Positions 344 to 50,133 of a stretch of DNA of 51,014 nt are shown piece after piece. The notes under the pieces were generated by a model, which saw nothing but the letters and a program-made list of their open reading frames with translations, was not told the DNA's origin and did no database searches. Location of the stretch: sequence record NC_054896.1; one strand, written 5' to 3'. Position 1 is the first letter of the stretch; every line of letters starts with the position of its first letter. The translations under genes and the position numbers were made by a program. The DNA is from Escherichia phage tiwna.

Positions 344-535
344 ATGGCTGACTTTATGCATCAAATGATTGTTGTATTTAAGGGCAGTGAAGATGAAGAG
401 GTTCGCGAATGCTTCACCATTGAGAAATCATACAGCGCATCTTTAACCAGTTTTGGCAACATATCTATGATTGATGATAATGGCGATCCGTGGATTTTTG
501 AAGATGATACGGATTGCTTTGAGATTAAAGAATAG
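344..535 (+). CDS. small acidic hypothetical protein (63 aa)
   Basis: ATG with upstream GGAG; D/E-rich product; its TAG stop is the first triplet of the conserved box at 533. Confidence 0.5.
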   Translation: MADFMHQMIVVFKGSEDEEVRECFTIEKSYSASLTSFGNISMIDDNGDPWIFEDDTDCFEIKE

Positions 536-550
536 CACTTTTTGCAAAAA
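533..550 (+). promoter_or_regulatory. conserved box (variant TTGCAAAAA) with -10 TATAGT at 570-575 in a hairpin loop
   Basis: TAGCACTTTTTGCAAAAA; hairpin gggcttgcggTATAGTaagccc. Confidence 0.5.
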
Positions 551-3507: not shown

Positions 3508-3525
3508 TAGCACTTTTTGTTAAAA
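3508..3525 (+). promoter_or_regulatory. conserved box followed by a hairpin
   Basis: TAGCACTTTTTGTTAAAA; hairpin aaggggcatttgataaagtgccctt. Confidence 0.45.
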
Positions 3526-6160: not shown

Positions 6161-7728
6161 TGATCATATGGGAAGATTTGACGGCGGCGCAAAAGCGAGC
6201 CATTAAAGAAATCAGTGAGCATTCATTCGAAAAGATGATCAGAATCTGGTTCCAATTATTGCAGGGGCAAAAATTCCAGAGCAACTGGCATTTTAGCTTA
6301 TTGTGCAGTGAGGTAGAGAAGATCATCAATGGAGAGTCGCAGAATGTGATTTTCAACATTACGCCAGGTAGCGGCAAGACTGAGATTTTCTCGATCCACA
6401 TGCCACCCTACGCGTCATTGAAAAGCCGGAAAGTGAGAAACCTTAACCTTTCGTTTAGTGATGGCCTTGTCCAGCAAAACAGCAACCGGATAAAGGAGAT
6501 TATCGGTTCTCCTGAGTGGCAAGAGCTATGGCCTGGAAAACTGGCAAAGGCGAGCGCTAAAGATCTGATAGTCACCGAAGGCGGCAAGGTTAAATTGCAA
6601 GTTAACTCACGTTCTATTGGCGGCCAGGTAACAGGTTTGCGTGGCGGCTATATGGATGATGGTTTTACTGGTATGCTGGTTCTTGACGATCCAGACAAGC
6701 CGGATGATATGCTTTCTAAGGTCAAGCGCGAGGCTATTCACATGCGGTTAAAAAACACAGTGCGATCGCGTCGAATGAAAGACACCACGCCAATTGTTAT
6801 GGTGCAACAGCGACTACACGTTAATGATTCCACCTGGTTCATGCTTAATGGCGGGATGGGTGGTATTGAGTTTAAAGTCGTGAGCATTCCGGCGCTGGTT
6901 ACGAAAGAATACCGCGAAACGCTTCCTGATTGGTTGAAGCCTGAATTTGATCGTGATGTGCTGTCAAGTAAGCCAGTGATGATAGATGGCGTCGCTCATT
7001 ATTCATTTTGGCCTGCGAAGGAAAGCGCGGAGGAGTTGCTTGCATTGCGCAATGCAGATCCTTACACGTTCGCCAGCCAATACCAACAGCAACCAATCGC
7101 GCTTGGCGGGAACGTGTTTAAAACAGAGTGGTTCCAGTATTACGGAAGCGGCGAAAAGTGCGCACTACCAAAACCGGATCGCTTTGAATACACATTTATT
7201 ACTGGAGATACCGCGCAGAAGGCCGGAGAGCTTAACGACTATTCGGTTTTTTGTTATTGGGGGATGTATAAGAATCGCGTTTACTTCATTGATGGCATTC
7301 GCGGAAAGTGGGAAGCGCCGGATCTTGAATTAAATTTTATTGCCTTCGTTAACCAGTGCTGGAAGCGCAATAAGGAGTGTGGCAGCTTGCGACGTATCCA
7401 CATTGAGGATAAGGCCAGCGGCACGGGTTTGATTCAGGGGGCCAAAAAGAAGATCCCGATTGATATAAATCCCGTTCAGCGAAGCAATGACAAGGTGACG
7501 CGAGCAATGGACGCCGCGCCAGTAATGAGGGCCGGACGTGTGGCGCTGCCAGAAAATCACCCCATGCTGCCTGAGATACTGGCAGAGGTTGCAGCATTCA
7601 CTTTTGATGATTCTCATCCCCATGATGATATTGTCGATAATATAGTTGATGCTGTTAACGTCGAAATGAATTTGGCAGATGATCCGGTAGCAAGGATGAA
7701 AAAGCTGGCAGGTCTACGCAATAAATAG
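6160..7728 (+). CDS. terL: terminase large subunit
   Basis: Walker A TPGSGKTE in the N-terminal ATPase, acidic nuclease-type C-terminus, 522 aa, precedes portal. Confidence 0.8.
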   Translation: MIIWEDLTAAQKRAIKEISEHSFEKMIRIWFQLLQGQKFQSNWHFSLLCSEVEKIINGESQNVIFNITPGSGKTEIFSIHMPPYASLKSRKVRNLNLSFSDGLVQQNSNRIKEIIGSPEWQELWPGKLAKASAKDLIVTEGGKVKLQVNSRSIGGQVTGLRGGYMDDGFTGMLVLDDPDKPDDMLSKVKREAIHMRLKNTVRSRRMKDTTPIVMVQQRLHVNDSTWFMLNGGMGGIEFKVVSIPALVTKEYRETLPDWLKPEFDRDVLSSKPVMIDGVAHYSFWPAKESAEELLALRNADPYTFASQYQQQPIALGGNVFKTEWFQYYGSGEKCALPKPDRFEYTFITGDTAQKAGELNDYSVFCYWGMYKNRVYFIDGIRGKWEAPDLELNFIAFVNQCWKRNKECGSLRRIHIEDKASGTGLIQGAKKKIPIDINPVQRSNDKVTRAMDAAPVMRAGRVALPENHPMLPEILAEVAAFTFDDSHPHDDIVDNIVDAVNVEMNLADDPVARMKKLAGLRNK

Positions 7729-7743
7729 CACTAATTGCTAAAA
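7726..7743 (+). promoter_or_regulatory. conserved box (spacer variant CTAAT) after terL, with atypical spacing to TATAAT at 7749-7754
   Basis: TAGCACTAATTGCTAAAA; half-sites preserved. Confidence 0.4.
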
Positions 7744-12351: not shown

Positions 12352-12368
12352 TTTAACAAAAAGTGCTA
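12352..12368 (-). promoter_or_regulatory. conserved palindromic box, inverted copy inside the late operon
   Basis: TTTAACAAAAAGTGCTAT, directly upstream of a terminator-like hairpin and the major capsid RBS. Confidence 0.4.
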
Positions 12369-16100: not shown

Positions 16101-16119
16101 TTTTAACAAAAAGTGCTAT
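16101..16119 (-). promoter_or_regulatory. conserved palindromic box, inverted copy abutting the chaperone RBS
   Basis: TTTTAACAAAAAGTGCTAT immediately followed by AAGGAG and ATG 16134. Confidence 0.4.
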
Positions 16120-22052: not shown

Positions 22053-25000
22053 ATGGCTAAATATATGATAAGCGGCAGTAAGGGAGGCGGTCAAAAGCCC
22101 TACGTGCCAAAAGAGATGGAAGATAACCTGATCTCGATAAACAAGATTAAAGTTTTGCTGGCTGTATCTGATGGCGAGTGCGATCCAGATTTTACGTTGC
22201 GTGATCTTTATCTTGATGATGTTCCGGTTATTGCCAGCGATGGCACTGTTAACTACGAGGGAGTTACGGCTGAATATCGACCAGGTACGCAGACGCAAGA
22301 TTACATCCAGGGTTTTACTGACACATCAAGTGAGGTTACAGTTGCCAGAGATATTACCGGAGACAATCCTTATGTTATTTCTGTTACAAATAAAAACCTA
22401 TCTGCGGTAAGAATAAAGATCCTGATGCCAGTAGGCATTAAAACAGAGGATAATGGCGATCTTGTTGGCGTAAGGGTTGAGTATGCCGTAGATATGGCTG
22501 TTGATGGCGGTTCTTATAGCGAGGTTATGAGAGATGTAATTGACGGCAAGACAAGATCAGGATACGACCGCAGCAGAAGGATTGATCTTCCTAAGTTTGA
22601 TGAGCGCGTTTTAATCAGGGTTAAGCGACTTACTCCAGACAGCACATCTTCAAAGGTGACTGATAAAATCAAACTGCAAAGTTACGCTGAGGTTGTGGAT
22701 GCAAAATTCCGTTATCCTCTGACTGGCCTTGTATTTGTAGAATTTGACAGCGAATTGTTTCCTACACAAATCCCTAACATTTCTATAAAAAAGAAATGGA
22801 AGATTATTAATGTGCCAAGCAACTATGATCCAATATCAAGAGAATATCACGGGTCATGGGATGGGACTTTTAAGAAAGCGTGGTCAAATAATCCTGCATG
22901 GGTTCTTTATGATCTGGTGACGAATCAGCGTTATGGGCTTGACCAGCGAGAGTTAGGGATACAGATCGACAAGTGGAGCTTATACGAGGCAGGCGTTTAC
23001 TGTGATCAGAAAGTTCCAGACGGTAAGGGCGGTACAGAGCCTCGCTACCTATGCGATGTGGTGATTCAGAATCAAGTTGAGGCTTATCAGCTAATCCGTG
23101 ACATTTGCTCAATCTTTCGCGGAATGAGCTTTTGGAATGGTGAGAGCTTATCAATCGTGATTGATAAGCCGCGCGATCCATCATACGTGTTTACTAATGA
23201 AAACGTCATCAACGGTGATTTTCAGTACACAACCGCAAGCGAAAAAAGCATGTACACGCAATGTAATGTGACGTTTGACGACGAACAAAACATGTATCAA
23301 CAGGACGTCGAGGGGGTTTTTGATACTGAGGCGGCATTACGATTTGGATACAATCCAACAAGCATTACAGCGATCGGGTGTACACGCAGGAGCGAAGCGA
23401 ATCGTCGAGGTCGGTGGGTTTTGAAAACAAACCTTAGAAGCACTACTGTAAACTTTGCTACTGGACTGGAGGGGATGATTCCATCCATAGGTGATGTGAT
23501 TGCTATCGCTGATAATTTTCAGAGCAGCAATCTAACGTTAAATCTTTCGGGCCGAGTAATGGAAGTTTCAGGCTTGCAAGTTTTCGTTCCGTTTAAAGTT
23601 GATGCGCGTCCTGGTGATTTTATTATCATCAATAAGCCGGACGGCAAGCCAGTTAAGCGAACGATCTCAAAGGTGAGCGCGGACGGAAAAACCATTGAGT
23701 TAAATATTGGCTTTGGTTTTGATGTTAAGCCAGACACTGTTTTTGCGATTGACCGTACTGACCTTGCGTTGCAGCAATACGTTGTGACCACTATCAGCAA
23801 GGGAGATGACGAAAACGAGTTTACCTATTCAATCACGGCTGTGGAGTACGATCCGAACAAATACGACGAGATTGATTATGGCGTAAACATTGATGACAGG
23901 CCTACTTCAATTGTTCAGCCTGACGTGATGGCAGCGCCGGAGAATGTTCAGATCTCATCTTATTCTCGCGTCGTGCAGGGTGTTAGCGTTGAAACTATGG
24001 TTGTTTCATGGGATAAGATTCCTTACGCATCGCTTTATGAAATGCAGTGGCGAAAAGGTGATGGTAACTGGCTGAATACGCCGCAGACCGCTAACAAAGA
24101 GATAGAGGTAGAAGGAATTTATTCAGGCAACTACCAAGTAAGGGTGAGATCCGTTTCTGCAAGCGGTAACACTTCCCCGTGGTCAAAGATTGCAACAGCT
24201 ACCCTGACAGGTAAAGTTGGCGAGCCAGGAGCGCCGATTAATCTTACAGCTTCTGATAATGAAGTTTTTGGCATTCGTGTCAAATGGGGCATGCCGGAAG
24301 GATCTGGCGATACGGCTTACATTGAGCTTCACCAATCGCCAGATGGAACGGTGGAAAACTCAAGTTTGCTTACGCTGATTCCATATCCTCAATATGAGTA
24401 TTGGCATAGCACGTTACCAGCGGGTAAAGTTGTATGGTATAGAATCCGTAGCGTTGACAGGATCGGCAACGTTTCAGGCTGGACTGACTTTGTTCGTGGC
24501 ATGGCGTCAGATGATGTTGAATCTGTTTTAGGCGACATTCTTGACAAGATTTTTGATACCGAAGCTGGTCAAGAAATCAAAGAGAACGCCATAGACAGTG
24601 CCAACAAAATCAAAGACCAGGCGCAATCAATCATCCAGAACGCATTGGCAAATGATTCTGATGTTAGAGTTATGAGAAAGGAGAATGGGAAACGGAAAGC
24701 TGAATTTAGGCAATCTATACAGATGATTACTGATGAAACAGAGGCAAGGGTAACAGCGTTAACGCAATTAAAAGCAGAATTTGATGAGGAGATAACTAGC
24801 GAAGTAACAAGACTTGATCAGGCGATCGCAACAGAATCAGAAACGCGAGCAACAGCTATAGAGGAATTAAAATCACAGATTGGTGATGATATTCAGGGGC
24901 AGTTAACGAGAGTTGAGGAAGCGATTGCAAGCGAAACAGAAGCGCGCGTTTCTGCCGATACTGCATTAACGGCAAAGTTTGGTGATCTTGAGTCAGCACT

Positions 25001-25478
25001 TACTGAAAAACTTGATTCATGGGCTGGCGTTGATTCCGTTGGTGCTCAATATTCAATGAAGCTGGGCCTAACCTATAACGGTCAGCAGTACAGCGCCGGA
25101 ATGGTTATGCAGTTAACGCAATCACCGCAAGGATTAATATCACAGATTCTGTTTGACGCTAACAGATTCGCGATCATGACAAGTTCTAGCGGCGGGGTAT
25201 ATACGCTTCCTTTCGTGGTTGAGAATAACCAGGTTTTCATCAATAGCTTACTTGTGAAAGATGGTTCAATAACTAATGCTATGATTGGAAACTTTATTCA
25301 GTCAAACAATTTTGTTCAAAATCAGCAAGGTTGGAGGCTTGATAAAAACGGAATATTTGAAAACTACGGGTCAACTCCAGGAGAGGGAGCTACTAAATTC
25401 ACCAACGAAGGATTGAAGGTAAAAGATGCAAACGGAGTATTGAGGGTTGAAGTCGGAAGGATTACCGGAAGCTGGTAA
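22053..25478 (+). CDS. tail tip / host specificity protein (lambda J-like)
   Basis: About 1141 aa, position after K/I-like genes, coiled-coil segment near the C-terminus; true ATG at 22053 lies after the terminator, so the track start at 22002 is rejected. Confidence 0.75.
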   Translation: MAKYMISGSKGGGQKPYVPKEMEDNLISINKIKVLLAVSDGECDPDFTLRDLYLDDVPVIASDGTVNYEGVTAEYRPGTQTQDYIQGFTDTSSEVTVARDITGDNPYVISVTNKNLSAVRIKILMPVGIKTEDNGDLVGVRVEYAVDMAVDGGSYSEVMRDVIDGKTRSGYDRSRRIDLPKFDERVLIRVKRLTPDSTSSKVTDKIKLQSYAEVVDAKFRYPLTGLVFVEFDSELFPTQIPNISIKKKWKIINVPSNYDPISREYHGSWDGTFKKAWSNNPAWVLYDLVTNQRYGLDQRELGIQIDKWSLYEAGVYCDQKVPDGKGGTEPRYLCDVVIQNQVEAYQLIRDICSIFRGMSFWNGESLSIVIDKPRDPSYVFTNENVINGDFQYTTASEKSMYTQCNVTFDDEQNMYQQDVEGVFDTEAALRFGYNPTSITAIGCTRRSEANRRGRWVLKTNLRSTTVNFATGLEGMIPSIGDVIAIADNFQSSNLTLNLSGRVMEVSGLQVFVPFKVDARPGDFIIINKPDGKPVKRTISKVSADGKTIELNIGFGFDVKPDTVFAIDRTDLALQQYVVTTISKGDDENEFTYSITAVEYDPNKYDEIDYGVNIDDRPTSIVQPDVMAAPENVQISSYSRVVQGVSVETMVVSWDKIPYASLYEMQWRKGDGNWLNTPQTANKEIEVEGIYSGNYQVRVRSVSASGNTSPWSKIATATLTGKVGEPGAPINLTASDNEVFGIRVKWGMPEGSGDTAYIELHQSPDGTVENSSLLTLIPYPQYEYWHSTLPAGKVVWYRIRSVDRIGNVSGWTDFVRGMASDDVESVLGDILDKIFDTEAGQEIKENAIDSANKIKDQAQSIIQNALANDSDVRVMRKENGKRKAEFRQSIQMITDETEARVTALTQLKAEFDEEITSEVTRLDQAIATESETRATAIEELKSQIGDDIQGQLTRVEEAIASETEARVSADTALTAKFGDLESALTEKLDSWAGVDSVGAQYSMKLGLTYNGQQYSAGMVMQLTQSPQGLISQILFDANRFAIMTSSSGGVYTLPFVVENNQVFINSLLVKDGSITNAMIGNFIQSNNFVQNQQGWRLDKNGIFENYGSTPGEGATKFTNEGLKVKDANGVLRVEVGRITGSW

Positions 25479-25508
25479 AAAAAAGGGGGCATAGCCCCCT
25501 TTAATTTT
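25476..25508. terminator. bidirectional terminator between J (+) and the leftward cassette (-)
   Basis: Hairpin agggggcatagccccct flanked by an A-run and a T-rich stretch. Confidence 0.6.
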
Positions 25509-26121
25509 AATCATAGTGTGATGCATTTATAACCAAAACAGATGAGGCGGTGTAAATACCAACAGGTCCAGGGGTTTGTGCAACCTGCCTGGAAAAAGAG
25601 TAGATCCCGTTACCATACGCGGCAGCTTGAGACTCAAAAATCATAAATCCACCTAAAGCCGGATTAGGTACAGAGTTTAACGCTGTTAGTGATGGCATTA
25701 TTGCGCAAGGGTAGCCCAGGTTAACATCAAACGCGATCCCGCTCACACCAACTTGCTTTGCATCAAGCGGCCTCATTTTTCCATGATAAACCATTTCACC
25801 ATGAGCGTTATAAAACGCTATGCCGTGACTACCTGGAGGAGTCACCATGTTACTAAAAGCATAAACAATAACCTCCCCTTGATTATCAGATCTATCAATT
25901 CTTATTGCGTGCCTTCCACCATTGTTAAATTGCGTAAATGATATGTATGATTTAGCAGTCAATCTAACAAAGAAAAAACATACCCTATCAACAGGAATTG
26001 ACGAAGTAAAAACGGTTCCGGTATTAGCAGATATTACGGCCCGATCAATTAGATTAACTGGAGTGAAATCTGGACTTAACCATAACGATCCGTCTGATTT
26101 TTTTATACTCATCCCGTACAT
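25507..26121 (-). CDS. hypothetical Gly-rich protein (204 aa)
   Basis: GGGGG RBS before ATG 26121; shares a short motif (G.A.Y...G.E.V) with the upstream 92-aa gene. Confidence 0.5.
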   Translation of the reverse strand: MYGMSIKKSDGSLWLSPDFTPVNLIDRAVISANTGTVFTSSIPVDRVCFFFVRLTAKSYISFTQFNNGGRHAIRIDRSDNQGEVIVYAFSNMVTPPGSHGIAFYNAHGEMVYHGKMRPLDAKQVGVSGIAFDVNLGYPCAIMPSLTALNSVPNPALGGFMIFESQAAAYGNGIYSFSRQVAQTPGPVGIYTASSVLVINASHYD

Positions 26122-26123
26122 TA

Positions 26124-26402
26124 TCACCCCCAAAAAGTATATATATATCTTGAATCAGATCCAGAAAGCCCACTCCATGTAACGGTGTCGCCACTTACCC
26201 CTAAGTTTGGTGCTCCAGGGTCGCCACCACGCCAGGAATTCATGCCAACATATATTGCTTTCAATGATTTACCTGGCGGCCTGTTTTGGTAAGTCTTGCT
26301 ACCTGATGGCTGAGTGAATTTATCAAGGAAGAAAACAGGCGTTAAAAGTCCTGTAACTTCCCTTCCTCGATCGTCATATATTGCATAACCATATTGCGCC
26401 AT
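26124..26402 (-). CDS. hypothetical protein (92 aa)
   Basis: GAGGTG RBS; TAATG overlap with the lipoprotein gene. Confidence 0.5.
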   Translation of the reverse strand: MAQYGYAIYDDRGREVTGLLTPVFFLDKFTQPSGSKTYQNRPPGKSLKAIYVGMNSWRGGDPGAPNLGVSGDTVTWSGLSGSDSRYIYTFWG

Positions 26403-26671
26403 TAATTACACCTCAAATCAATAAATTTACTTTCATTTTGCCAACGGTTGATAAATTTAACTTCTTTATTGTCAACGCTCAACCTGTATTGCTTTTGGCT
26501 GAATCTGTTTTCGCGTACTGCATTAATTTTAACTTCATGGAATCCGTTAACAGGGAATGTTTTAACGTTAAATTTTGCCGTGCAGTCGATCTCATTGAAG
26601 TTGCCAGTAGGAGACGCTGCGCACCCGGTCAGAGCGGCTACGGTGGCGATAACTGCGATTATTTTTTTCAT
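26402..26671 (-). CDS. small lipoprotein, candidate Cor-like superinfection-exclusion protein
   Basis: Signal peptide with lipobox LTGC (MKKIIAVIATVAALTGC); AGGAG RBS; located downstream of the tail tip genes. Confidence 0.5.
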   Translation of the reverse strand: MKKIIAVIATVAALTGCAASPTGNFNEIDCTAKFNVKTFPVNGFHEVKINAVRENRFSQKQYRLSVDNKEVKFINRWQNESKFIDLRCN

Positions 26672-26727
26672 CTTCAATACTCCTTAGTTGTCGTTGTCTG
26701 TAACTATACACGATCCGACAAGCGGCG

Positions 26728-26744
26728 TTTAGCAAAAAGTGCTA
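26728..26744 (-). promoter_or_regulatory. conserved palindromic box (minus orientation) with -10 at 26703-26708
   Basis: TAGCACTTTTTGCTAAA on the minus strand, 19 bp from TATAGT, upstream of the lipoprotein operon. Confidence 0.5.
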
Positions 26745-26854
26745 CTTGTTATTTTTTGTTTTTCGGTGTTATCGAATTTAAGACGGCGTAAATTTAGCGC
26801 AAATTTTAGCCAACATAAGGGCAATAAACAATCAATAAAATAGATATATACATA

Positions 26855-27060
26855 TAAAATCAATAGTTTATTTATTTATGTATGTATATTTGTTTTTTCT
26901 TGTTATCTGTGTTTCTTGTGGTTTTGGTTGTTTGTGGTGATTTTTCTTTCTGAGTATCTGTATGTGCCATCATTCATGTGTATGTATATAATCCGGCGTA
27001 TCTGAGAGAACAAGGGAACAAGAAAAATAACACATATTAATCATTGACTTACGTTTCAAA
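26855..27060. repeat. GT-rich strand-biased noncoding region A, homologous to 47395-47660
   Basis: Shared blocks ttatttatttat, ttgttatct, gtatctgtatgtg and gggaacaagaaaaa; top strand almost devoid of C over about 80 bp. Confidence 0.5.
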
Positions 27061-27114
27061 TTTGTTTTATTGCAATCTAAGAACGTTTAGAAAACAGAAA
27101 AAACAAAACAACTA

Positions 27115-27142
27115 TTGACTAAATCAACCAAATGGCTACAAT
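27115..27142 (+). promoter_or_regulatory. sigma70-like promoter (TTGACT-16-TACAAT) for the recombination module
   Basis: -35 at 27115-27120 and -10 at 27137-27142, about 30 nt before the exonuclease RBS. Confidence 0.5.
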
Positions 27143-27172
27143 GCACACACAAAGCAACAAGGAGCATCAAAG

Positions 27173-28228
27173 ATGAGTGATTTTAACGCCTACACTAGCG
27201 AAGAAATGAGCAATGAGCTTTATCATGATCCTAACGCGTGGACGGCTGAATACGTCAGCGGTTCCAGCTTGGCGGAGATTTACAGCACTTGCCCGGCGTA
27301 CTGGAAGTACAAGCCTCGCCAGGAAACTAAGGCACTTGTTTTCGGTACGCAGTCGCATACCAATTTTGAAAGCAAGGAGTTATTCGAAAAAACATATCGC
27401 CGCGCACCGTCGCAGGATGACTTTAAAGATCTGATCACAAGCCAAACGGCGTTGGCTTCAAAGCTGAAATCTTTTAGCCTGAAAGGCACGACGGGTAAGC
27501 AGTATCCAGAATTGCTGGAAATGCTGTACAAGTGCGGTGAGGATCTCAATGTATGGTGGCTTATCGAAATGATGGCAGAATGCCAGGCCGCAGCGGACGG
27601 AGTGCAGTTAATCGACGCGAAAGACTATGATGCCTGTGTAGCGATGCGGAGCGTACTTGAGGCAATACCTGAGCATAATGCTTGCATGAATAGCCCAACC
27701 GCGCAGCGTGAAATGTCAATATTCGGGATCATCAATGGCGTAAAAGTTAAAGTGCGTCTTGATCACGTTGACGTAAACAAGGATGTAAAGGCCACAATCA
27801 TTAACGGTTACGACGAAAAAGGCCGACCGATTTATGAAGAAGTCATCTATCCAGAAGCTGTGATTATCACTGACTATAAAACAACGGTTAGCGCAAATCC
27901 GGTTGACTTCCAGCGCCTGGCTTACAATCACGGCTATTATCTAAAAATGGCTTTGCAGCATGATTTATTTAAAAAGGCGTATCCAGACGATGAAAGGCCA
28001 GTAATTGTGAGATTGCTTGCTCAGGAGAAGAAAGAGCCTTACTTGCCGCTCGCATTCCGCATGAACATTGAGCAATTGAAGATCGGGCGTATCCAGTACA
28101 TGAGCGTGATCAACAAGTTCAACGTTTGCCAACAGTTAGATGAATGGCCTTCGTATGCAAACGGACAACCAGAAATTGATCTTGATACTCCTGATTGGGT
28201 TCGTGCTCAATTCAGGCAGTATCTATGA
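27173..28228 (+). CDS. PD-(D/E)XK family exonuclease (RecE/RecB-like)
   Basis: Motif VIITDYKT typical of the PD-(D/E)XK D..K core; position upstream of annealase and SSB; AGGAG RBS. Confidence 0.6.
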   Translation: MSDFNAYTSEEMSNELYHDPNAWTAEYVSGSSLAEIYSTCPAYWKYKPRQETKALVFGTQSHTNFESKELFEKTYRRAPSQDDFKDLITSQTALASKLKSFSLKGTTGKQYPELLEMLYKCGEDLNVWWLIEMMAECQAAADGVQLIDAKDYDACVAMRSVLEAIPEHNACMNSPTAQREMSIFGIINGVKVKVRLDHVDVNKDVKATIINGYDEKGRPIYEEVIYPEAVIITDYKTTVSANPVDFQRLAYNHGYYLKMALQHDLFKKAYPDDERPVIVRLLAQEKKEPYLPLAFRMNIEQLKIGRIQYMSVINKFNVCQQLDEWPSYANGQPEIDLDTPDWVRAQFRQYL

Positions 28229-29719: not shown

Positions 29720-29750
29720 AAAAGCCCCGCATATGCGGGGCATATTTTAT
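29720..29750. terminator. bidirectional terminator between ssb (+) and the tail fibre gene (-)
   Basis: Hairpin gccccgcatatgcggggc with flanking A- and T-runs. Confidence 0.65.
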
Positions 29751-31879
29751 TTATCACTTAACTTTGAAATTAAATTTCTAATTTCGTTAATTTCTGATTT
29801 TAACATTTCTATTTCCTCTTGCTGTTTTTTTATTAATTCCTCTTGTCTATCTGAGTCAGAGATCATCTCATTTATAGCATTTACAAGCAATGCAGTAACG
29901 CCGCTATAACTTACACCCAAGTAATCAGAGTCTGATATTTTGTAAACAGCCTCCGGTAAAACATTTTGCACATCTTGAGCTATTACCCCAGCCTCCTCCG
30001 AATATATAGAATATTCATCTTCATAAAGATTACTGCGCTTAAAGTAAGTGTAACCCTTGATTGACTTCACTTTTTCTCTAGCGCCCTTAATCTCCTTCAA
30101 GTTTGCTTTCAGTCTAATATCTGACGTGCTGACCCATTGAACACATGAGGCGTAACCAGCATCATTAAATCCGAAAATCGCACCCCTTACATTAAAATGA
30201 GCCGCGCAACCTCCACTGCTATATCTGACAACATCAAGACCAGCAACCCATTCATAACCCCACCGAACGGCCTTAAAGATGCTTGAGGCTGCATCATCTG
30301 TTGGCAACTCAACAAGAAGACCAGACGCTCTATCCCTCCAGTCAGTAAAAGCACCTCCATATACTTGACCGCCAATTAGAGCATTGCCTCCGCCAATTCT
30401 AGATCCTGAAACTCTAATGCCATTTGCGTTATTATCAATAGGCCATATGGTTAAAAGACCGTTAAGGTGAGCTTGATATGCCTCCCATGTAAAAACATTT
30501 CTACCGTTTGCGAATGTCTGTAATATGCCGTCCCCACCTTGCTTAAACCCGGTGTCGCTATCACCTATAACTAACGAATTAGACCCAAGTGAATTTATAA
30601 TGCCTCTACCAATTGTTATTGTATTGTAATTTATGGCGTTTCCGCTTTCGTCAAATTGATAATAGTTTGTATCTCCACCTTCTCTTGTTACCTGTATTGT
30701 TGCTTTAGCTGTACCACCTATAATTTCATTGTAGACCCTTGAGTATGAAAGCTGCACACCTTCTGCGTTCTTGTTTCTAAGGTAAAGAATGCCTGATGCT
30801 TCTCCGTTGTTGTTATCAAGATTTACCCCCAAGAATACAGGGATATGATTTGTCGCAAGCCCTAAATTGTGCCTTACTCCATCGGGAGTTGTTGCGCCTG
30901 TACCGCCAGCGCCAATAGAAAGCGCATATGTAGCGTTATCACTATTACTTGCAACTCTCCATTCTCCATTGTTAGCAATCCTCAATTCATAGCTTGCTTG
31001 CGGATTAGCGAAGCTGTTGTAATCGCCAGGCGTTGAATGAGAAGCCGGATCATTGCTAATTACCGCTTGAACCTGCAACACTTTTCTTGCTTCAGCCTTA
31101 TCAGTAAGATCATTAAGGTTTTGATCCTTATGGAGAATATTTTCAGGATTTACTTGTTGCGCCCATTGCATAGCCTCATCTCTTGCAGATTCAGCGGCTG
31201 ATTTTGCACTTTCAGCATAATTCTTGGCATTGTCAGCCTCATTTTTAGCATTAATTGCGCCATCTCTAGCTGATTCAGCCTCTGATTTAATGCTTGTAAC
31301 CTCAACAACTGCAGAGTCCTTTATTTGCTGAGTCTGATCTTTAATTGATTGAGCCTCGTTTTTTATGGCGTTAGTTTCGCTTACTGCGTCATCTTTGATC
31401 TTCTGAGTTTCAGCTAGGGCAGAATCCTTTATCTGTTGAGTGTCATTTTTTAATTGCTCAGTGGCTGCGCGATCTGTTGCTACTTGTTGCGCAGACTCCT
31501 TAACTTGATTCACCAGATCCTTTAAGCCATCCAAATCAAAATCTTTAAAAAACTCTATTGCTTCTGCAATTTCTGTTTCCTTGCTCTGGTAATAACGCAA
31601 AGTTTCCGCTACATCCTGCGCAAGCCCGTCAACCGTTAACGAGTCATGAAGCAAGATCAGGTAATTTGTTTGCTGAACTACTTCACCGCCAGTAGTAATG
31701 GCGCGAATGCTTGTATCGCTAATCACCTCTGTGATCACGGCAGCTTGCAAAGGTTGAGTAAGAAAGAAAATAGTTGCACCTGGGCGAATCAATGTTAATT
31801 GCTCGCGCCATTTTGTTTCGTAACCAGTAACATAACCTTGAGCGTCCATCGACGCTTGGCCTTGTCTGTAAATCGCCAT
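29747..31879 (-). CDS. tail fibre protein with C-terminal intramolecular chaperone (S74-type) domain
   Basis: C-terminal SDIRLK motif and following about 110 aa resemble self-cleaving chaperone domains; coiled-coil Q/K-rich region; GGAGG RBS before ATG 31879. Confidence 0.65.
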
Positions 31880-31897
31880 TTGTAAAATCCTCCTAAA

Positions 31898-31914
31898 TAG
31901 CACTTTTTGCTAAT
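31898..31914 (+). promoter_or_regulatory. conserved palindromic box (perfect palindrome TAGCA-N5-TGCTA) abutting the tail fibre RBS
   Basis: TAGCACTTTTTGCTAAT; lies between the primase terminator and the tail fibre RBS. Confidence 0.4.
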
Positions 31915-33459: not shown

Positions 33460-33477
33460 TAGCATTTTTTGTTAAAA
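33460..33477 (+). promoter_or_regulatory. conserved box with -10 TATTAT at 33497-33502, in the divergent region between the HTH and helicase genes
   Basis: TAGCATTTTTTGTTAAAA with the 19-bp spacing to the -10. Confidence 0.5.
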
Positions 33478-35532: not shown

Positions 35533-35951
35533 TGGCTATAACTGATAAAGGCGATTATCTTGAGTTTTACGAAAGGGATCCAACCGACACGAGAAGGGAA
35601 GTTAATCACCAGATAGATAGTTTTCAGTGGTTGACTTATGCTCATCCTTATTTGCTGGCGTGGCATACGGTAAACGAGAATGAGAAGTCTAAAGCAACGG
35701 CGATGATTGATCAGCAGTCCGGCTTGGTTAAGGGAGTAAGCGATTTCATCATCCTGATTGGTTTAAACGGAAAATACCCCTTTGCAGCGATTGAGATCAA
35801 ACGAGTGAATAAATCAGGCAAGGGGAAAGCATCACCAGTCAGCGATGAACAAAAGGCTTTTTTGCGTCGCGTTCGCAGCTTAGGAGGATTCGCTGCGGTA
35901 GCCTACGGATTCAATCAGTTTAAGTTGGCTATTGAATACATGCTTAAATAG
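35532..35951 (+). CDS. VRR-NUC domain nuclease
   Basis: Motifs AIEIKR (E.K) and QKAFLRRVRSLGG typical of VRR-NUC; ATG overlaps the helicase stop. Confidence 0.5.
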   Translation: MAITDKGDYLEFYERDPTDTRREVNHQIDSFQWLTYAHPYLLAWHTVNENEKSKATAMIDQQSGLVKGVSDFIILIGLNGKYPFAAIEIKRVNKSGKGKASPVSDEQKAFLRRVRSLGGFAAVAYGFNQFKLAIEYMLK

Positions 35952-35966
35952 CACTTTTTGTTAAAA
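35949..35966 (+). promoter_or_regulatory. conserved box with -10 CATAAT at 35986-35991
   Basis: TAGCACTTTTTGTTAAAA; TAG is the stop codon of the upstream gene. Confidence 0.5.
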
Positions 35967-37019: not shown

Positions 37020-37065
37020 TAGCACTTTTTGTTAAAACGCCCGGCCTAGTGTCGGGCATAATTAT
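37020..37065 (+). promoter_or_regulatory. conserved box plus hairpin plus -10 CATAAT; left arm of the ~46-bp inverted repeat
   Basis: TAGCACTTTTTGTTAAAAcgcccggcctagtgtcgggCATAAT, nearly identical to the reverse complement of 40234-40279. Confidence 0.55.
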
Positions 37066-40233: not shown

Positions 40234-40279
40234 CAAATATACCCGACACTAGGCCGGGCGTTTTAACAAAAAATGCTAT
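40234..40279 (-). promoter_or_regulatory. conserved box plus hairpin plus -10; right arm of the ~46-bp inverted repeat
   Basis: Reverse complement reads ATAGCATTTTTTGTTAAAAcgcccggcctagtgtcgggTATATT. Confidence 0.55.
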
Positions 40280-42422: not shown

Positions 42423-42441
42423 TTTTGTCAAAAAGTGCTAT
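42423..42441 (-). promoter_or_regulatory. conserved box (variant TTGACAAAA), minus orientation
   Basis: TAGCACTTTTTGACAAAA on the minus strand; TAG is the stop of gene 42438..42659. Confidence 0.5.
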
Positions 42442-43096: not shown

Positions 43097-43115
43097 TTTT
43101 AACAAAAAGTGCTAT
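43097..43115 (-). promoter_or_regulatory. conserved box, minus orientation, with -10 at 43062-43067
   Basis: TAGCACTTTTTGTTAAAA, hairpin gccaggtgtaaaaacctggc, then CATAAT. Confidence 0.5.
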
Positions 43116-45295: not shown

Positions 45296-45314
45296 TTTTA
45301 ACAAAAAGTGCTAT
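45296..45314 (-). promoter_or_regulatory. conserved box, minus orientation, with -10 at 45271-45276
   Basis: TAGCACTTTTTGTTAAAA then 19 bp then TATATT. Confidence 0.5.
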
Positions 45315-45801: not shown

Positions 45802-45820
45802 TTTTAACAAAAAGTGCTAT
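45802..45820 (-). promoter_or_regulatory. conserved box, minus orientation, with -10 at 45777-45782
   Basis: TAGCACTTTTTGTTAAAA then 19 bp then TACATT. Confidence 0.5.
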
Positions 45821-47105: not shown

Positions 47106-47124
47106 TTTTAACAAAAAGTGCTAT
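47106..47124 (-). promoter_or_regulatory. conserved box, minus orientation, with -10 at 47081-47086
   Basis: TAGCACTTTTTGTTAAAA then 19 bp then TACATT. Confidence 0.5.
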
Positions 47125-48184: not shown

Positions 48185-48441
48185 AAAAGGCATTAATCGG
48201 CGTTTTGGTGGCAATGGCATTCCTGACCGGATGCGAAAAGGCATCAGAATCAACGGTTGTCGTAGGCGTGGAGTCAGATTTCAAAGTCGGCCGCCTGTTC
48301 ACTGTTGACGGATGCACAGCATACAGATTCTATGATAACGGTCGCGCGATCTATTACACCAATTGCAAGGGCGCAACGGATAGCACGTACAACAGCGGAA
48401 AGAACGTAATGCACCAGCAAGTCACAACAGATATTAAATAG
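48181..48441 (+). CDS. small lipoprotein (86 aa)
   Basis: Signal peptide with lipobox LTGC (MKKALIGVLVAMAFLTGC); ATGA coupling. Confidence 0.5.
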   Translation: MKKALIGVLVAMAFLTGCEKASESTVVVGVESDFKVGRLFTVDGCTAYRFYDNGRAIYYTNCKGATDSTYNSGKNVMHQQVTTDIK

Positions 48442-48456
48442 CACTTTTTGTTAAAA
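48439..48456 (+). promoter_or_regulatory. conserved box with -10 CATAAT at 48476-48481
   Basis: TAGCACTTTTTGTTAAAA, hairpin gccaggcgcaaagcctggc, then CATAAT. Confidence 0.5.
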
Positions 48457-49965: not shown

Positions 49966-50118
49966 ATGGCTACATGGATTCTACTGATTCTTATGATTGA
50001 TGGCGGCGTTGACCATATCGAAATGAATAGCCAGCAATCTTGCATTGAGGCACGAGAGCAGATCAAGAACAACAACAGGTTTTATGCGTACACTCACACG
50101 CTATGTATTAAGAAATAG
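49966..50118 (+). CDS. small membrane peptide (50 aa)
   Basis: RBS gaggtgagag; hydrophobic N-terminus; TAG stop is the first triplet of the box at 50116; below the ORF-track cutoff. Confidence 0.35.
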   Translation: MATWILLILMIDGGVDHIEMNSQQSCIEAREQIKNNNRFYAYTHTLCIKK

Positions 50119-50133
50119 CACTTTTTGTTAAAA
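50116..50133 (+). promoter_or_regulatory. conserved box with -10 TATAAT at 50152-50157
   Basis: TAGCACTTTTTGTTAAAA then 18 bp then TATAAT. Confidence 0.5.

What the first reader, a model, noticed from the sequence alone, without database searches (positions are those of the whole stretch)
25507..26744. Leftward three-gene cassette (lipoprotein plus two related Gly-rich proteins) inserted between the tail tip and recombination modules
An operon on the opposite strand, with its own box promoter (26728-26744), encodes a lipobox lipoprotein (MKKIIAVIATVAALTGC), a 92-aa protein and a 204-aa protein. The latter two share a short motif (YGYAIYDDRGREVTG versus HGIAFYNAHGEMVYHG). The position downstream of the receptor-binding tail genes is where T1-like and lambdoid phages carry cor-type superinfection-exclusion lipoproteins, but the two downstream genes have no assignable function. 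This could be a multi-component exclusion or receptor-masking system.
Basis: partly seen in the sequence, partly recalled or inferred. Interest (0 to 1): 0.65.

Follow-up and report, generated by a model that had tools for sequence, protein, structure and literature searches.

The report
Phage BtuB receptor-binding and exclusion cassette
This three-gene cassette is the already-described host-recognition locus of T1-like coliphages: two small tail-tip proteins that most likely bind the vitamin-B12 transporter BtuB, plus a lipoprotein that probably blocks that receptor in infected cells. It is not a three-part exclusion system.

Summary
Three translationally coupled minus-strand genes (lipoprotein 26402-26671, 92 aa 26124-26402, 204 aa 25507-26121) lie between a repeated phage "box" motif and a bidirectional terminator shared with gene J.

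The window is a Warwickvirus (Drexlerviridae). The cassette is 98-99.5% identical to that of phages FritzSarasin/Bas04, JK16 and Kalemo, whose terminal receptor was shown experimentally to be BtuB. This locus downstream of J is the published "bona fide RBP locus plus superinfection-exclusion gene".

- **The 92-aa protein.** It is the obligate neighbour of the 204-aa gene. It sits next to T1 gp31 as gp32, and it is fused to a 204-aa-like protein in other phages. The pair follows a J-type tail-tip domain even in Stx podophages that lack the lipoprotein.
- **The lipoprotein.** It is Cor-like only in its signal peptide and cysteine pattern. A BtuB-blocking role is inferred by analogy.

The locus is already known and interest is modest. 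New here are the unification of two RBP families and a repeat-module architecture.

The parts
26728..26744 (-). Conserved phage 'box' motif TAGCACTTTTTGCTAAA upstream of the cassette; a putative promoter element
   Evidence: 20 copies in the window within 3 mismatches, against 0.36 expected. Copies are oriented with the downstream genes and are generally followed about 20 nt later by a -10-like hexamer. Promoter activity is inferred.
26703..26708 (-). -10-like hexamer TATAGT, 19 nt downstream of the box
   Evidence: Read from the sequence. The same spacing is seen at most other box copies. The generic sigma-70 scan did not call it.
26402..26671 (-). 89-aa prolipoprotein. Signal peptide plus lipobox LTGC, Ala at +2, and mature Cys30 and Cys88. 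Putative BtuB-directed superinfection-exclusion factor.
   Evidence: ORF and sequence. Pfam LPAM_1 matched below threshold. phrog_1119 (Cor) matched at 1.6e-7, but the mature part alone gives no Cor match. BLASTP to T1 Cor aligns only residues 1-34. Homologues occur only in phages that carry the same type of pair. Function is inferred by analogy with Cor, Llp and Rtp45.
26124..26402 (-). 92-aa protein of family phrog_557 (T1 gp32 / N15 gp22 type). One module made of a beta-hairpin and a six-strand sandwich. Proposed partner or adaptor of the receptor-binding protein.
   Evidence: phrog_557 at 4e-20. T1 gp32 and Stx2-II C21 fall in the same family. Natural fusions to 204-aa-like proteins exist. 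AF2 model has pLDDT 74.5. No signal peptide or TM segment.
25507..26121 (-). 204-aa protein of family phrog_425 (T1 gp31 / N15 gp23 type). Two beta-sandwich modules. Proposed BtuB-binding receptor-binding protein at the tip of J.
25482..25502 (.). Bidirectional intrinsic terminator between the convergent J gene and the cassette
   Evidence: 9-bp stem with 6 GC pairs, scored on both strands, with a T-run on the minus strand. The only Rfam match (Bp1_162 sRNA, 25477-25522) is far below its gathering score.
22053..25478 (+). J-like central tail fibre (1141 aa). It ends in a PF09327 tail-tip domain plus the tail ...KVKDANGVLRVEVGRITGSW, the presumed docking site for the 92/204-aa pair.
   Evidence: Pfam PF24801, PF13550 and PF09327 (residues 983-1114). 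phrog_31 and phrog_496. The C-terminal tail is shared with T1 and JenP2, which carry the same pair family, and differs in Oekolampad and in the fusion-type phages. Docking is inferred.

Best explanation
The cassette is the BtuB allele of the variable host-recognition locus that T1-like and related small siphophages carry directly downstream of gene J. It encodes two functions in one operon.

**(1) Receptor binding.** The 204-aa protein is the receptor-binding protein. It is made in the cytoplasm and attached non-covalently to the distal end of the trimeric J fibre. It binds the extracellular face of the TonB-dependent vitamin-B12 transporter BtuB, which triggers irreversible adsorption and DNA ejection. 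The 92-aa protein is its obligate partner. It is a third copy of the same hairpin-plus-beta-sandwich module and most likely forms part of the same tip complex, as an adaptor or co-receptor-binding subunit.

**(2) Exclusion.** The lipoprotein is exported, lipidated and sorted to the inner leaflet of the outer membrane. There it most likely binds BtuB from the periplasmic side and makes it unusable for this and other BtuB-dependent phages. That would give superinfection exclusion and protect progeny from adsorbing to cell debris.

**What is shown and what is inferred.**
- Shown here: gene structure, family membership, synteny, fold homology to a proven RBP, and near-identity to phages with genetically proven BtuB dependence.
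- Inferred: physical binding of the 204-aa protein to BtuB, the presence of both small proteins in the virion, the role of the 92-aa protein, and the target and activity of the lipoprotein.
For: **Identity and receptor**
- The window is 98-99.5% identical across the cassette to Warwickviruses Kalemo, NorthRox and FritzSarasin/Bas04.
- Bas04's terminal receptor is BtuB (BASEL S5 table). Its RB-TnSeq hits are btuB, sdaC and dcrB.
- JK16 and the 50,469-bp Warwickvirus 'Kameto' are also BtuB phages.
- JLBYU19 carries this cassette at 96% identity. [quoted passage not shown]

**Locus concept**
- Published work matches alleles of this locus to receptors and places cognate exclusion genes there.

**The 204-aa protein as RBP**
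- Profile-profile comparison with the LptD-RBP family gives E 7.6e-7 at 92% probability.
- Oekolampad's locus has the same layout: J on the plus strand, then the RBP and exclusion lipoprotein on the minus strand.
- Conserved N-terminal hairpin and core segments (1-25, 86-120, 196-204) contrast with a hypervariable segment at 144-195.

**A tail protein, not an envelope protein**
- Neither small protein has a signal peptide or TM segment.
- In T1 the pair is co-transcribed with J.
- The pair follows a PF09327 tip domain in JenP2, in Stx2-II and in IMG/VR phages.

**The 92-aa protein as partner**
- Gene order is constant. Natural 92+204 fusions exist: hhalign 95% and 99.5% probability, and both PHROGs match one protein.
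- The module repeat signal is E 1e-5 to 2e-4. The strand pattern matches that of the N-domain of the 204-aa protein.

**The lipoprotein**
- It has a classical lipobox.
- It holds the same first-gene position as Rtp45 and the Oekolampad exclusion protein. Rtp45's structure on LptDE shows periplasmic-face receptor blocking.
- Its identity across phages falls in step with that of the pair.
Against: - No direct evidence exists for binding to BtuB or for virion incorporation of either small protein.
- The T1 cryo-EM study could not resolve J residues 821-1172 and does not mention gp31 or gp32.
- In the Stx2 podophage Sp5, in-frame deletions of the homologues ORF72 (92 aa) and ORF73 (205 aa) did not abolish plaque formation or lysogeny on K-12. 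The pair is therefore not universally essential for infection.
- The published AlphaFold3 RBP-BtuB model for Bas04 has only ipTM 0.47, against 0.82 for Bas06. I could not establish from the supplement which gene those authors modelled.
- The same preprint reports receptor-associated sequence features in the C-terminal tip of J itself.
- The lipoprotein's mature domain shows no detectable sequence similarity to Cor, Llp or Rtp45.
- RBP and exclusion genes share one promoter here, which leaves their timing unexplained.
Confidence: 0.75

Rival explanations
1. All three proteins form a multi-component superinfection-exclusion or receptor-masking system. This is the first reader's proposal, and the KanT1 paper makes the same suggestion for the homologous T1 cassette.
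For: - The three genes form one translationally coupled operon headed by the lipoprotein.
- The KanT1 authors found no structural hits and assumed a role related to exclusion.
- Sp5 homologues are dispensable for infection.
Against: - Neither small protein has a signal peptide or TM segment, so the PHROG labels have no sequence basis.
- In T1 the pair sits in the tail operon and only cor is divergent.
- The pair occurs without any lipoprotein in JenP2 and in Stx phages.
- The fold and profile match a proven RBP.
- The hypervariable region tracks receptor class.
Confidence: 0.06
2. The 92- and 204-aa proteins are non-structural assembly factors or chaperones for the distal end of J, and J's own C-terminal domain binds BtuB.
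For: - Receptor-predictive k-mers map to the C-terminal tip of J.
- In TolC, LamB and NupG phages J itself carries the specificity.
- Sp5 ORF72 and ORF73 are non-essential.
- The locus proteins were not seen in the T1 cryo-EM map, and the locus protein of SH6 (a different family) was absent from its virion mass spectrometry.
Against: - The closest structural relative, RBP-Oeko, binds its receptor directly as a purified protein.
- Stable full-length fusions of the two proteins in other phages argue for a structural unit rather than a removable chaperone.
- The J C-terminal tail is nearly the same in the BtuB phage (window) and the FhuA phage (T1). It therefore follows the type of locus protein, not the receptor.
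- The strongest variability lies inside the 204-aa protein.
Confidence: 0.1
3. The 204-aa and 92-aa proteins are the RBP complex, but the lipoprotein is not a BtuB blocker. It might target another envelope component such as DcrB or SdaC, or have an unrelated role.
For: - The mature domain has no detectable homology to Cor, Llp or Rtp45.
- Bas04 also needs DcrB and SdaC, which offer alternative exclusion targets.
- JenP2 and Stx phages manage without such a lipoprotein.
Against: - It holds the same position and order as the characterised Rtp45 and as T1 cor.
- Its Cys pattern and the 'CTA' motif resemble T1 Cor.
- It co-varies with the pair across phages.
- The KanT1 authors detected a Cor-like protein in a BtuB-using Tempevirinae phage.
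Confidence: 0.09

Closest known systems
BtuB allele of the 'bona fide RBP locus' downstream of gpJ in Drexlerviridae (BASEL phage FritzSarasin/Bas04, genes bas04_0023 to bas04_0025; also JK16 and Kalemo)
   Same: The three genes, their order and their strand are the same. Nucleotide identity is 98-99.5%, and the 204-aa protein is 99.5% identical. The receptor of these phages is BtuB by genetics.
   Different: Essentially nothing; this is the same cassette. The published work assigns the locus to BtuB by correlation and AlphaFold3. It does not show biochemically which protein binds.
Oekolampad (Bas18) RBP bas18_0025 plus exclusion lipoprotein bas18_0026, and Rtp44/Rtp45 (PDB 9RPT; LptDE receptor)
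   Different: The Oekolampad RBP is a single 321-aa chain (phrog_1265), where the window has 92 + 204 aa in two genes (phrog_557 + phrog_425). The receptor is LptD, not BtuB. The lipoproteins share no detectable sequence similarity (phrog_4281 versus none).
T1 gp32 / gp31 / Cor cassette (also N15 gp22-gp23-cor, HK022, phi80, ES18), associated with FhuA
   Same: The two PHROG families are the same, matched at full length, and the gene order small-then-large is the same. The conserved hairpin motif recurs three times. J ends in the same ...LRVxxGRxTGSW tail. A small lipoprotein is adjacent.
   Different: Pairwise identity is only about 24-31% over partial alignments. In T1 the pair is co-directional with J and only cor is inverted. 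The receptor is FhuA. T1 Cor is a true phrog_1119 member (3e-30), whereas the window lipoprotein matches only through its signal peptide.
T5 pb5 / Llp (FhuA) and T5-like BtuB phages
   Same: The functional logic is the same: a separate monomeric RBP at the tip of a trimeric central fibre, plus an early lipoprotein that inactivates the same TonB-dependent receptor from the periplasmic side.
Sp5/933W Stx-phage ORF72-ORF73 (ECs1234/ECs1235; Stx2-II C21/C22)
   Same: Identity is 44-51% to the two window proteins, with the same lengths and order. The pair lies directly behind a protein carrying the PF09327 J-tip domain.
   Different: The host is a short-tailed phage. There is no lipoprotein, and lom follows instead. 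In-frame deletions are viable on K-12.

Membership tests
Drexlerviridae-type RBP/exclusion locus downstream of gpJ, BtuB allele | Lies immediately downstream of a J-like central fibre gene that lacks its own receptor-binding C-terminal extension | tested here: met
   J spans 22053-25478 and ends about 27 aa after its PF09327 domain. The cassette starts 29 nt later on the other strand.
Drexlerviridae-type RBP/exclusion locus downstream of gpJ, BtuB allele | The allele matches that of phages with an experimentally determined BtuB requirement | tested here: met
   98-99.5% nucleotide identity to Bas04, JK16 and Kalemo. BtuB dependence is documented.
Drexlerviridae-type RBP/exclusion locus downstream of gpJ, BtuB allele | The encoded RBP physically binds BtuB and is present in the virion | not testable with these tools
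   Needs biochemistry, cryo-EM or virion proteomics. The only published support is AlphaFold3 models (ipTM 0.47 for Bas04, 0.82 for Bas06).
phrog_557 + phrog_425 pair (T1 gp32/gp31, N15 gp22/gp23) | Full-length HMM match of both proteins, in the order small then large | tested here: met
   The 92-aa protein matches phrog_557 at 4e-20 (residues 3-92) and the 204-aa protein matches phrog_425 at 4e-49 (residues 1-204). T1 and Stx2-II members were scored the same way.
LptD-type RBP family (Oekolampad RBP / Rtp44; phrog_1265; PDB 9RPT chain C) | Shared fold with the solved RBP | tested here: met
LptD-type RBP family (Oekolampad RBP / Rtp44; phrog_1265; PDB 9RPT chain C) | Sequence-family membership: full-length match to phrog_1265 as a single chain of about 320 aa | tested here: not met
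   Only a local match was found: phrog_1265 at E 0.007 over residues 75-120, and hhalign over 69 columns at E 7.6e-7. The window protein is split into two genes. This indicates remote homology, not membership.
Cor superinfection-exclusion lipoprotein (phrog_1119) | Signal peptide II with lipobox, and a small mature domain | tested here: met
   MKKIIAVIATVAALTG|C with a 72-aa mature part.
Cor superinfection-exclusion lipoprotein (phrog_1119) | Sequence similarity of the mature domain to Cor | tested here: not met
   The mature sequence alone gives no phrog_1119 match at E<=10. BLASTP to T1 Cor aligns only residues 1-34. A shared Cys pattern (a 'CTA' Cys early in the mature part and a Cys 2 residues from the C-terminus) is visible in the sequences, but it is weak evidence.
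Cor superinfection-exclusion lipoprotein (phrog_1119) | Blocks FhuA | not testable with these tools
   Relatives of this phage use BtuB, not FhuA, so a different target is expected.
T5 Llp / Rtp45 exclusion lipoproteins (solved structures) | Sequence or fold similarity to Llp or Rtp45 | tested here: not met
   phmmer against all PDB chains found no match at E<=1.
   The highest 19-residue Kyte-Doolittle hydropathy is 0.55 for the 92-aa protein and 1.28 for the 204-aa protein, and neither has an N-terminal hydrophobic segment.

The most novel reading that the evidence does not exclude
The separately encoded receptor-binding proteins of T1-like, lambdoid FhuA-dependent, Dhillonvirus, Nonagvirus and even Stx podophages may form one ancient superfamily. 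It would be built from three copies of a 'beta-hairpin plus six-strand sandwich' module. The module would come as one chain (LptD type, about 320 aa; fused type, about 315 aa) or split 1+2 (92 aa + 204 aa, as in this window and in T1).

The three modules would form a pseudo-threefold cap. Its three conserved hairpins (consensus YG-h-x-h-x-[DN]-x-x-G) would dock onto the three C-terminal hairpins of the J trimer (...KVKDANGVLRVEVG...). This would adapt a threefold fibre to a monomeric barrel receptor.

If correct, this would identify the long-unassigned FhuA-binding protein of phage T1 as gp31/gp32. It would also contradict the current description of these RBP families as unrelated.
Probability: 0.35. 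Interest if true: 0.55.

Novelty: already known. Interest (0 to 1): 0.3.

Why it matters
The locus determines which outer-membrane protein the phage uses, and so sets its host range, its cross-resistance patterns in phage cocktails, and which bacterial mutants escape. Here those would be btuB mutants, which also lose vitamin-B12 uptake and colicin E sensitivity.

The cassette is compact and portable, which makes it a practical module for retargeting small siphophages. The lipoprotein is a candidate reagent for switching BtuB off from inside the cell.

For this window nothing new needs to be claimed, because near-identical cassettes are already assigned to BtuB in the literature. Two by-products may be useful to the field:
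- Evidence that the phrog_425 (FhuA/BtuB-type) and phrog_1265 (LptD-type) RBPs are homologous.
- Evidence that the 92-aa and 204-aa proteins form one unit, shown by natural fusions.

Both bear on a current disagreement. One 2026 paper treats the T1-type pair as exclusion-related, while others treat the locus proteins as RBPs and describe the four RBP families as unrelated.

Tried and rejected
- **Pfam.** No family matched the 92- or 204-aa proteins.
- **PDB sequence search.** phmmer of all three proteins against PDB sequences found nothing usable.
- **Pairwise BLASTP.** The 92-aa versus 204-aa comparison was not significant. The relation appears only at profile level.
- **Comparison with T1.** Pairwise BLASTP to T1 gp32 and gp31 was marginal. 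The PHROG HMMs were needed to show family membership.
- **Cor membership of the lipoprotein.** Rejected as a demonstrated membership after re-scanning the mature domain alone.
- **Single-sequence hhalign.** The Oekolampad RBP alone against the fusion family or the 204-aa family gave nothing convincing. Building a 7-member profile made the match significant.
- **Fold search for the 92-aa model.** Foldseek against the PDB returned only non-significant small beta-sandwich hits.
- **Generic sigma-70 scan.** It did not call a promoter in front of the cassette.
- **Rfam.** No RNA family in 25300-27300 reached threshold.
- **Virion evidence.** The T1 cryo-EM study did not resolve the distal J region. 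SH6 virion mass spectrometry did not include its locus protein, which belongs to a different family. The Rtp genome paper (PMC1367250) is not held.
- **Which gene was modelled as the RBP.** I could not determine from the preprint's supplement which gene number its authors modelled.
- **Other readings considered and rejected.** A spanin or lysis role for the lipoprotein was set aside from the gene map alone: it lies between the tail and recombination genes, not in a lysis-type cluster (no lysis genes were identified in the window here). YD-repeat/Rhs relatedness of the hairpin motif was a resemblance from memory only and is not supported by any search.
Full report
**What is there.**
The region holds three minus-strand genes packed head to tail.
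- An 89-aa prolipoprotein at 26402-26671 begins MKKIIAVIATVAALTG|C and has an AAGGAG ribosome-binding site 8 nt upstream.
- A 92-aa protein at 26124-26402 has a start codon that shares one base with the lipoprotein stop.
- A 204-aa protein at 25507-26121 starts 2 nt after the 92-aa stop.

A 9-bp-stem hairpin at 25482-25502 scores as an intrinsic terminator on both strands. It separates the cassette from the convergent J gene, which ends at 25478.

The 17-nt 'box' at 26728-26744 is one of 20 copies in the window within 3 mismatches, against 0.36 expected by chance. Copies are generally followed about 20 nt later by a -10-like hexamer; here it is TATAGT at 26703-26708. A generic sigma-70 scan does not call it a promoter, so promoter function is an inference from its recurrence in front of genes. 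Rfam finds no family match above threshold in the region.

**Where the window comes from.**
The cassette and its flanks are 99.5% identical to phages Kalemo and NorthRox and 98.1% identical to FritzSarasin (BASEL Bas04). These are Warwickviruses (Drexlerviridae, Tempevirinae) of E. coli. The flanking genes are a J-like central tail fibre and a RecE-type exonuclease, an Erf-type annealing protein and an SSB.

**What the literature already says about this locus.**
- The BASEL paper (PMC8594841) describes the locus directly downstream of gpJ in Drexlerviridae, Dhillonvirus, Nonagvirus and Seuratvirus as the 'bona fide RBP locus'. [quoted passage not shown]
- Its S5 table gives BtuB as the terminal receptor of Bas04.
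- A 2026 preprint (10.64898/2026.04.02.716166) confirms this with genome-wide screens. The Bas04 hits are btuB, sdaC and dcrB. JK16 and a 50,469-bp Warwickvirus 'Kameto' are also BtuB phages. Kameto has the same length and genus as Kalemo, so it is probably the same phage, but I did not verify this.
[quoted passage not shown] One of them, JLBYU19, carries this cassette at 96% identity.
- In contrast, the 2026 KanT1 paper (PMC13164509) found no structural hits for the homologous T1 pair and assumed that it acts in superinfection exclusion.

**The two non-lipoprotein genes are tail genes, not envelope genes.**
- Neither protein has a signal peptide or a membrane-spanning segment. The highest 19-residue hydropathy is 0.55 and 1.28. 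The PHROG labels 'outer membrane protein' (phrog_557, 4e-20) and 'membrane associated protein' (phrog_425, 4e-49) therefore have no sequence basis.
- T1 gp32 and gp31 belong to the same two families at full length. In T1 they lie on the same strand as J, directly behind it, and only cor is on the opposite strand.
- In Nonagvirus JenP2 the pair lies behind J with no lipoprotein.
- The pair also occurs at 44-51% identity in short-tailed Stx-converting phages (933W, Sp5, Stx2-II). There it is co-directional with the tail genes and lies directly behind a 422-aa protein. That 422-aa protein carries the PF09327 tail-tip domain found at the end of J.
- The conserved unit is thus [J-type tip domain] + [about 92 aa] + [about 204 aa]. 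The lipoprotein is an add-on restricted to a subset of siphophages.

**The 204-aa protein is a homologue of a proven receptor-binding protein.**
With a 65-sequence alignment, AlphaFold2 gives a confident all-beta, two-domain model (pLDDT 89.7, pTM 0.84). Only the first 20 residues have low confidence.

At sequence level the match is weak for single sequences. A 7-member profile of LptD-type RBPs against a 73-member profile of the 204-aa family gives 92% probability and E 7.6e-7 over 69 columns.

Oekolampad's locus has the same architecture as the window: J on the plus strand, then the exclusion lipoprotein followed by the RBP on the minus strand. For that system, purified RBP binds the extracellular face of the receptor. 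The related lipoprotein Rtp45 binds the periplasmic face and prevents RBP binding.

Within the 204-aa family, segments 1-25, 86-120 and 196-204 are conserved. Residues 144-195 fall to 12-13% identity between the BtuB-associated proteins and the JenP/Stx-type proteins. This is the pattern expected for a scaffold carrying a specificity surface.

**The 92-aa protein belongs to the same unit.**
- A full HMM search of 1.84 billion representative proteins found 126 relatives of the 204-aa family. They include a set of proteins of about 315 aa.
- The first ~78 residues of these proteins match the 92-aa family (95% probability, E 2.7e-8). Residues ~100-310 match the 204-aa family (99.5%, E 1.2e-22). 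Both PHROGs hit the same protein.
- These fusion genes sit directly behind J in 40-50 kb viral contigs. At least one has a Cor-family lipoprotein on the opposite strand.
It opens the 92-aa protein, opens the 204-aa protein, and starts the second domain of the 204-aa protein. It is also present in the T1, Stx and JenP2 homologues.
- Profile comparisons of the three segments give E 1.3e-5, 6.9e-6 and 2.2e-4 over 44-50 columns.
- The 92-aa model (pLDDT 74.5) has a hairpin followed by six strands, at almost the same positions as the N-domain of the 204-aa model.
- I read this as three copies of one module, split 1+2. This is moderately supported, not proven.

**The lipoprotein.**
It has a textbook lipobox and an Ala at +2. 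By established Lol-sorting rules that implies the inner leaflet of the outer membrane. Two further cysteines lie early in the mature part and two residues from the C-terminus, as in T1 Cor.

Its match to the Cor family (phrog_1119, 1.6e-7) disappears when the signal peptide is removed. BLASTP to T1 Cor covers only residues 1-34. There is no sequence match to Llp or Rtp45 in the PDB.

Its homologues occur only in phages with the same type of pair, and identity falls in step with the pair. I therefore assign it as a receptor-specific exclusion lipoprotein, most likely acting on BtuB. The assignment rests on position and analogy only, and I do not file it as a Cor family member.

**Evidence against, and open points.**
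- Nobody has shown the 92- or 204-aa proteins in virions or bound to BtuB.
- The T1 cryo-EM structure could not resolve J beyond residue 820 and does not mention gp31 or gp32.
- In the Stx2 phage Sp5, in-frame deletions of ORF72 (92 aa) and ORF73 (205 aa) were not among the nine genes essential for plaques and lysogeny on K-12. In that podophage the pair is therefore dispensable, perhaps as an auxiliary receptor binder.
- The published AlphaFold3 RBP-BtuB model for Bas04 is weak (ipTM 0.47), while Bas06 scores 0.82. I could not determine which gene was modelled.
- Receptor-associated sequence features also map to the tip of J. However, the extreme C-terminus of J (...LRVxxGRxTGSW) is shared between the window (BtuB), T1 (FhuA) and JenP2. 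It differs in Oekolampad and the fusion-type phages. It therefore follows the type of locus protein rather than the receptor, as expected for a docking site (small sample).
- Why an RBP needed late and an exclusion protein needed early share one promoter here is unexplained.

**Verdict.**
The finding is real but ordinary. It is the already-described BtuB host-recognition and exclusion locus of Warwickviruses, nearly identical to that of Bas04.

Modest added value comes from three results:
- The fold and profile link between the phrog_425 and phrog_1265 RBP families.
- The natural 92+204 fusions.
- The three-module architecture.

Together these suggest a testable model: a pseudo-threefold cap on the J trimer.

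Noticed in passing
window 533-549, 904-920, 2214-2230, 3508-3524, 7726-7742, 12352-12368(-), 16102-16118(-), 26728-26744(-), 31898-31914, 33460-33476, 35949-35965, 37020-37036, 40262-40278(-), 42424-42440(-), 43098-43114(-), 45297-45313(-), 45803-45819(-), 47107-47123(-), 48439-48455, 50116-50132: A 17-nt motif TAGCACTTTTTG(T/C)TAAA occurs 20 times (0.36 expected). It is generally followed about 20 nt later by a -10-like hexamer and then a purine-rich leader. The -35-like TTGTTA is too far from the -10 for a standard sigma-70 promoter. In many copies the spacer contains a GC-rich inverted repeat. Two copies (12352, 16102) point leftward inside the rightward structural-gene block, where no long minus-strand ORF exists.
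   Followed up: partly
window 26745-27172: An AT-rich ~430-bp divergent intergenic region lies between the cassette and the exonuclease VIII gene. It holds many short direct and inverted repeats and two sigma-70-like sites on the plus strand (26964-26992 and 27115-27142). The Kalemo record annotates three tiny ORFs (29-44 aa) here, which look spurious.
   Followed up: partly
L003 (Stx2 converting phage II) 6714-7618; homologues in 933W, VT2-Sakai/Sp5 and about 100 other Stx phage records: The 92-aa/204-aa pair is conserved at 44-51% identity in short-tailed Shiga-toxin phages. It lies between a 422-aa protein with a J-tip (PF09327) domain and lom. Published in-frame deletions (Sp5 ORF72, ORF73) are viable, so its role there is unknown.
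   Followed up: partly
L033 6001-6954 and 6960-7211(-); L027 6001-6966; 80 IMG/VR loci L006-L085: Natural fusions of the 92-aa-like and 204-aa-like proteins (about 315 aa) are encoded with a start overlapping the J stop in 40-50 kb viral contigs. L033 has a true Cor-family lipoprotein (phrog_1119, 2.9e-11) convergent right behind the fusion gene.
   Followed up: yes
window 25416-25475 (J C-terminus) compared with L005, L004, L003, L086: J ends in KVKDANGVLRVEVGRITGSW. This tail is nearly identical in T1 and JenP2 and has the same h-x-h-x-D-x-x-G-x-h-x-h character as the hairpin motif that opens the 92-aa and 204-aa proteins. It differs in Oekolampad and in the fusion-type phages.
   Followed up: partly
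phage records MG065643, MG065649, MG065657, MG065663, MG065681 ('Campylobacter phage'); OQ221563 ('Acinetobacter phage NJ01'): Records labelled as Campylobacter or Acinetobacter phages carry T1-like or Dhillonvirus coliphage host-recognition genes at 51-91% identity. The host labels look doubtful.
   Followed up: no
literature: supplement of 10.64898/2026.04.02.716166: Besides btuB, Bas04 and Bas06 need the inner-membrane/periplasmic proteins SdaC and DcrB. This suggests a post-adsorption entry requirement specific to this phage group, which the cassette does not explain.
   Followed up: no
window 29747-31903 (-): A 718-aa ORF lies on the minus strand downstream of the recombination genes. It corresponds to the lateral tail fibre gene of Bas04 and Kalemo, so host-recognition genes flank the recombination module on both sides.
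   Followed up: no
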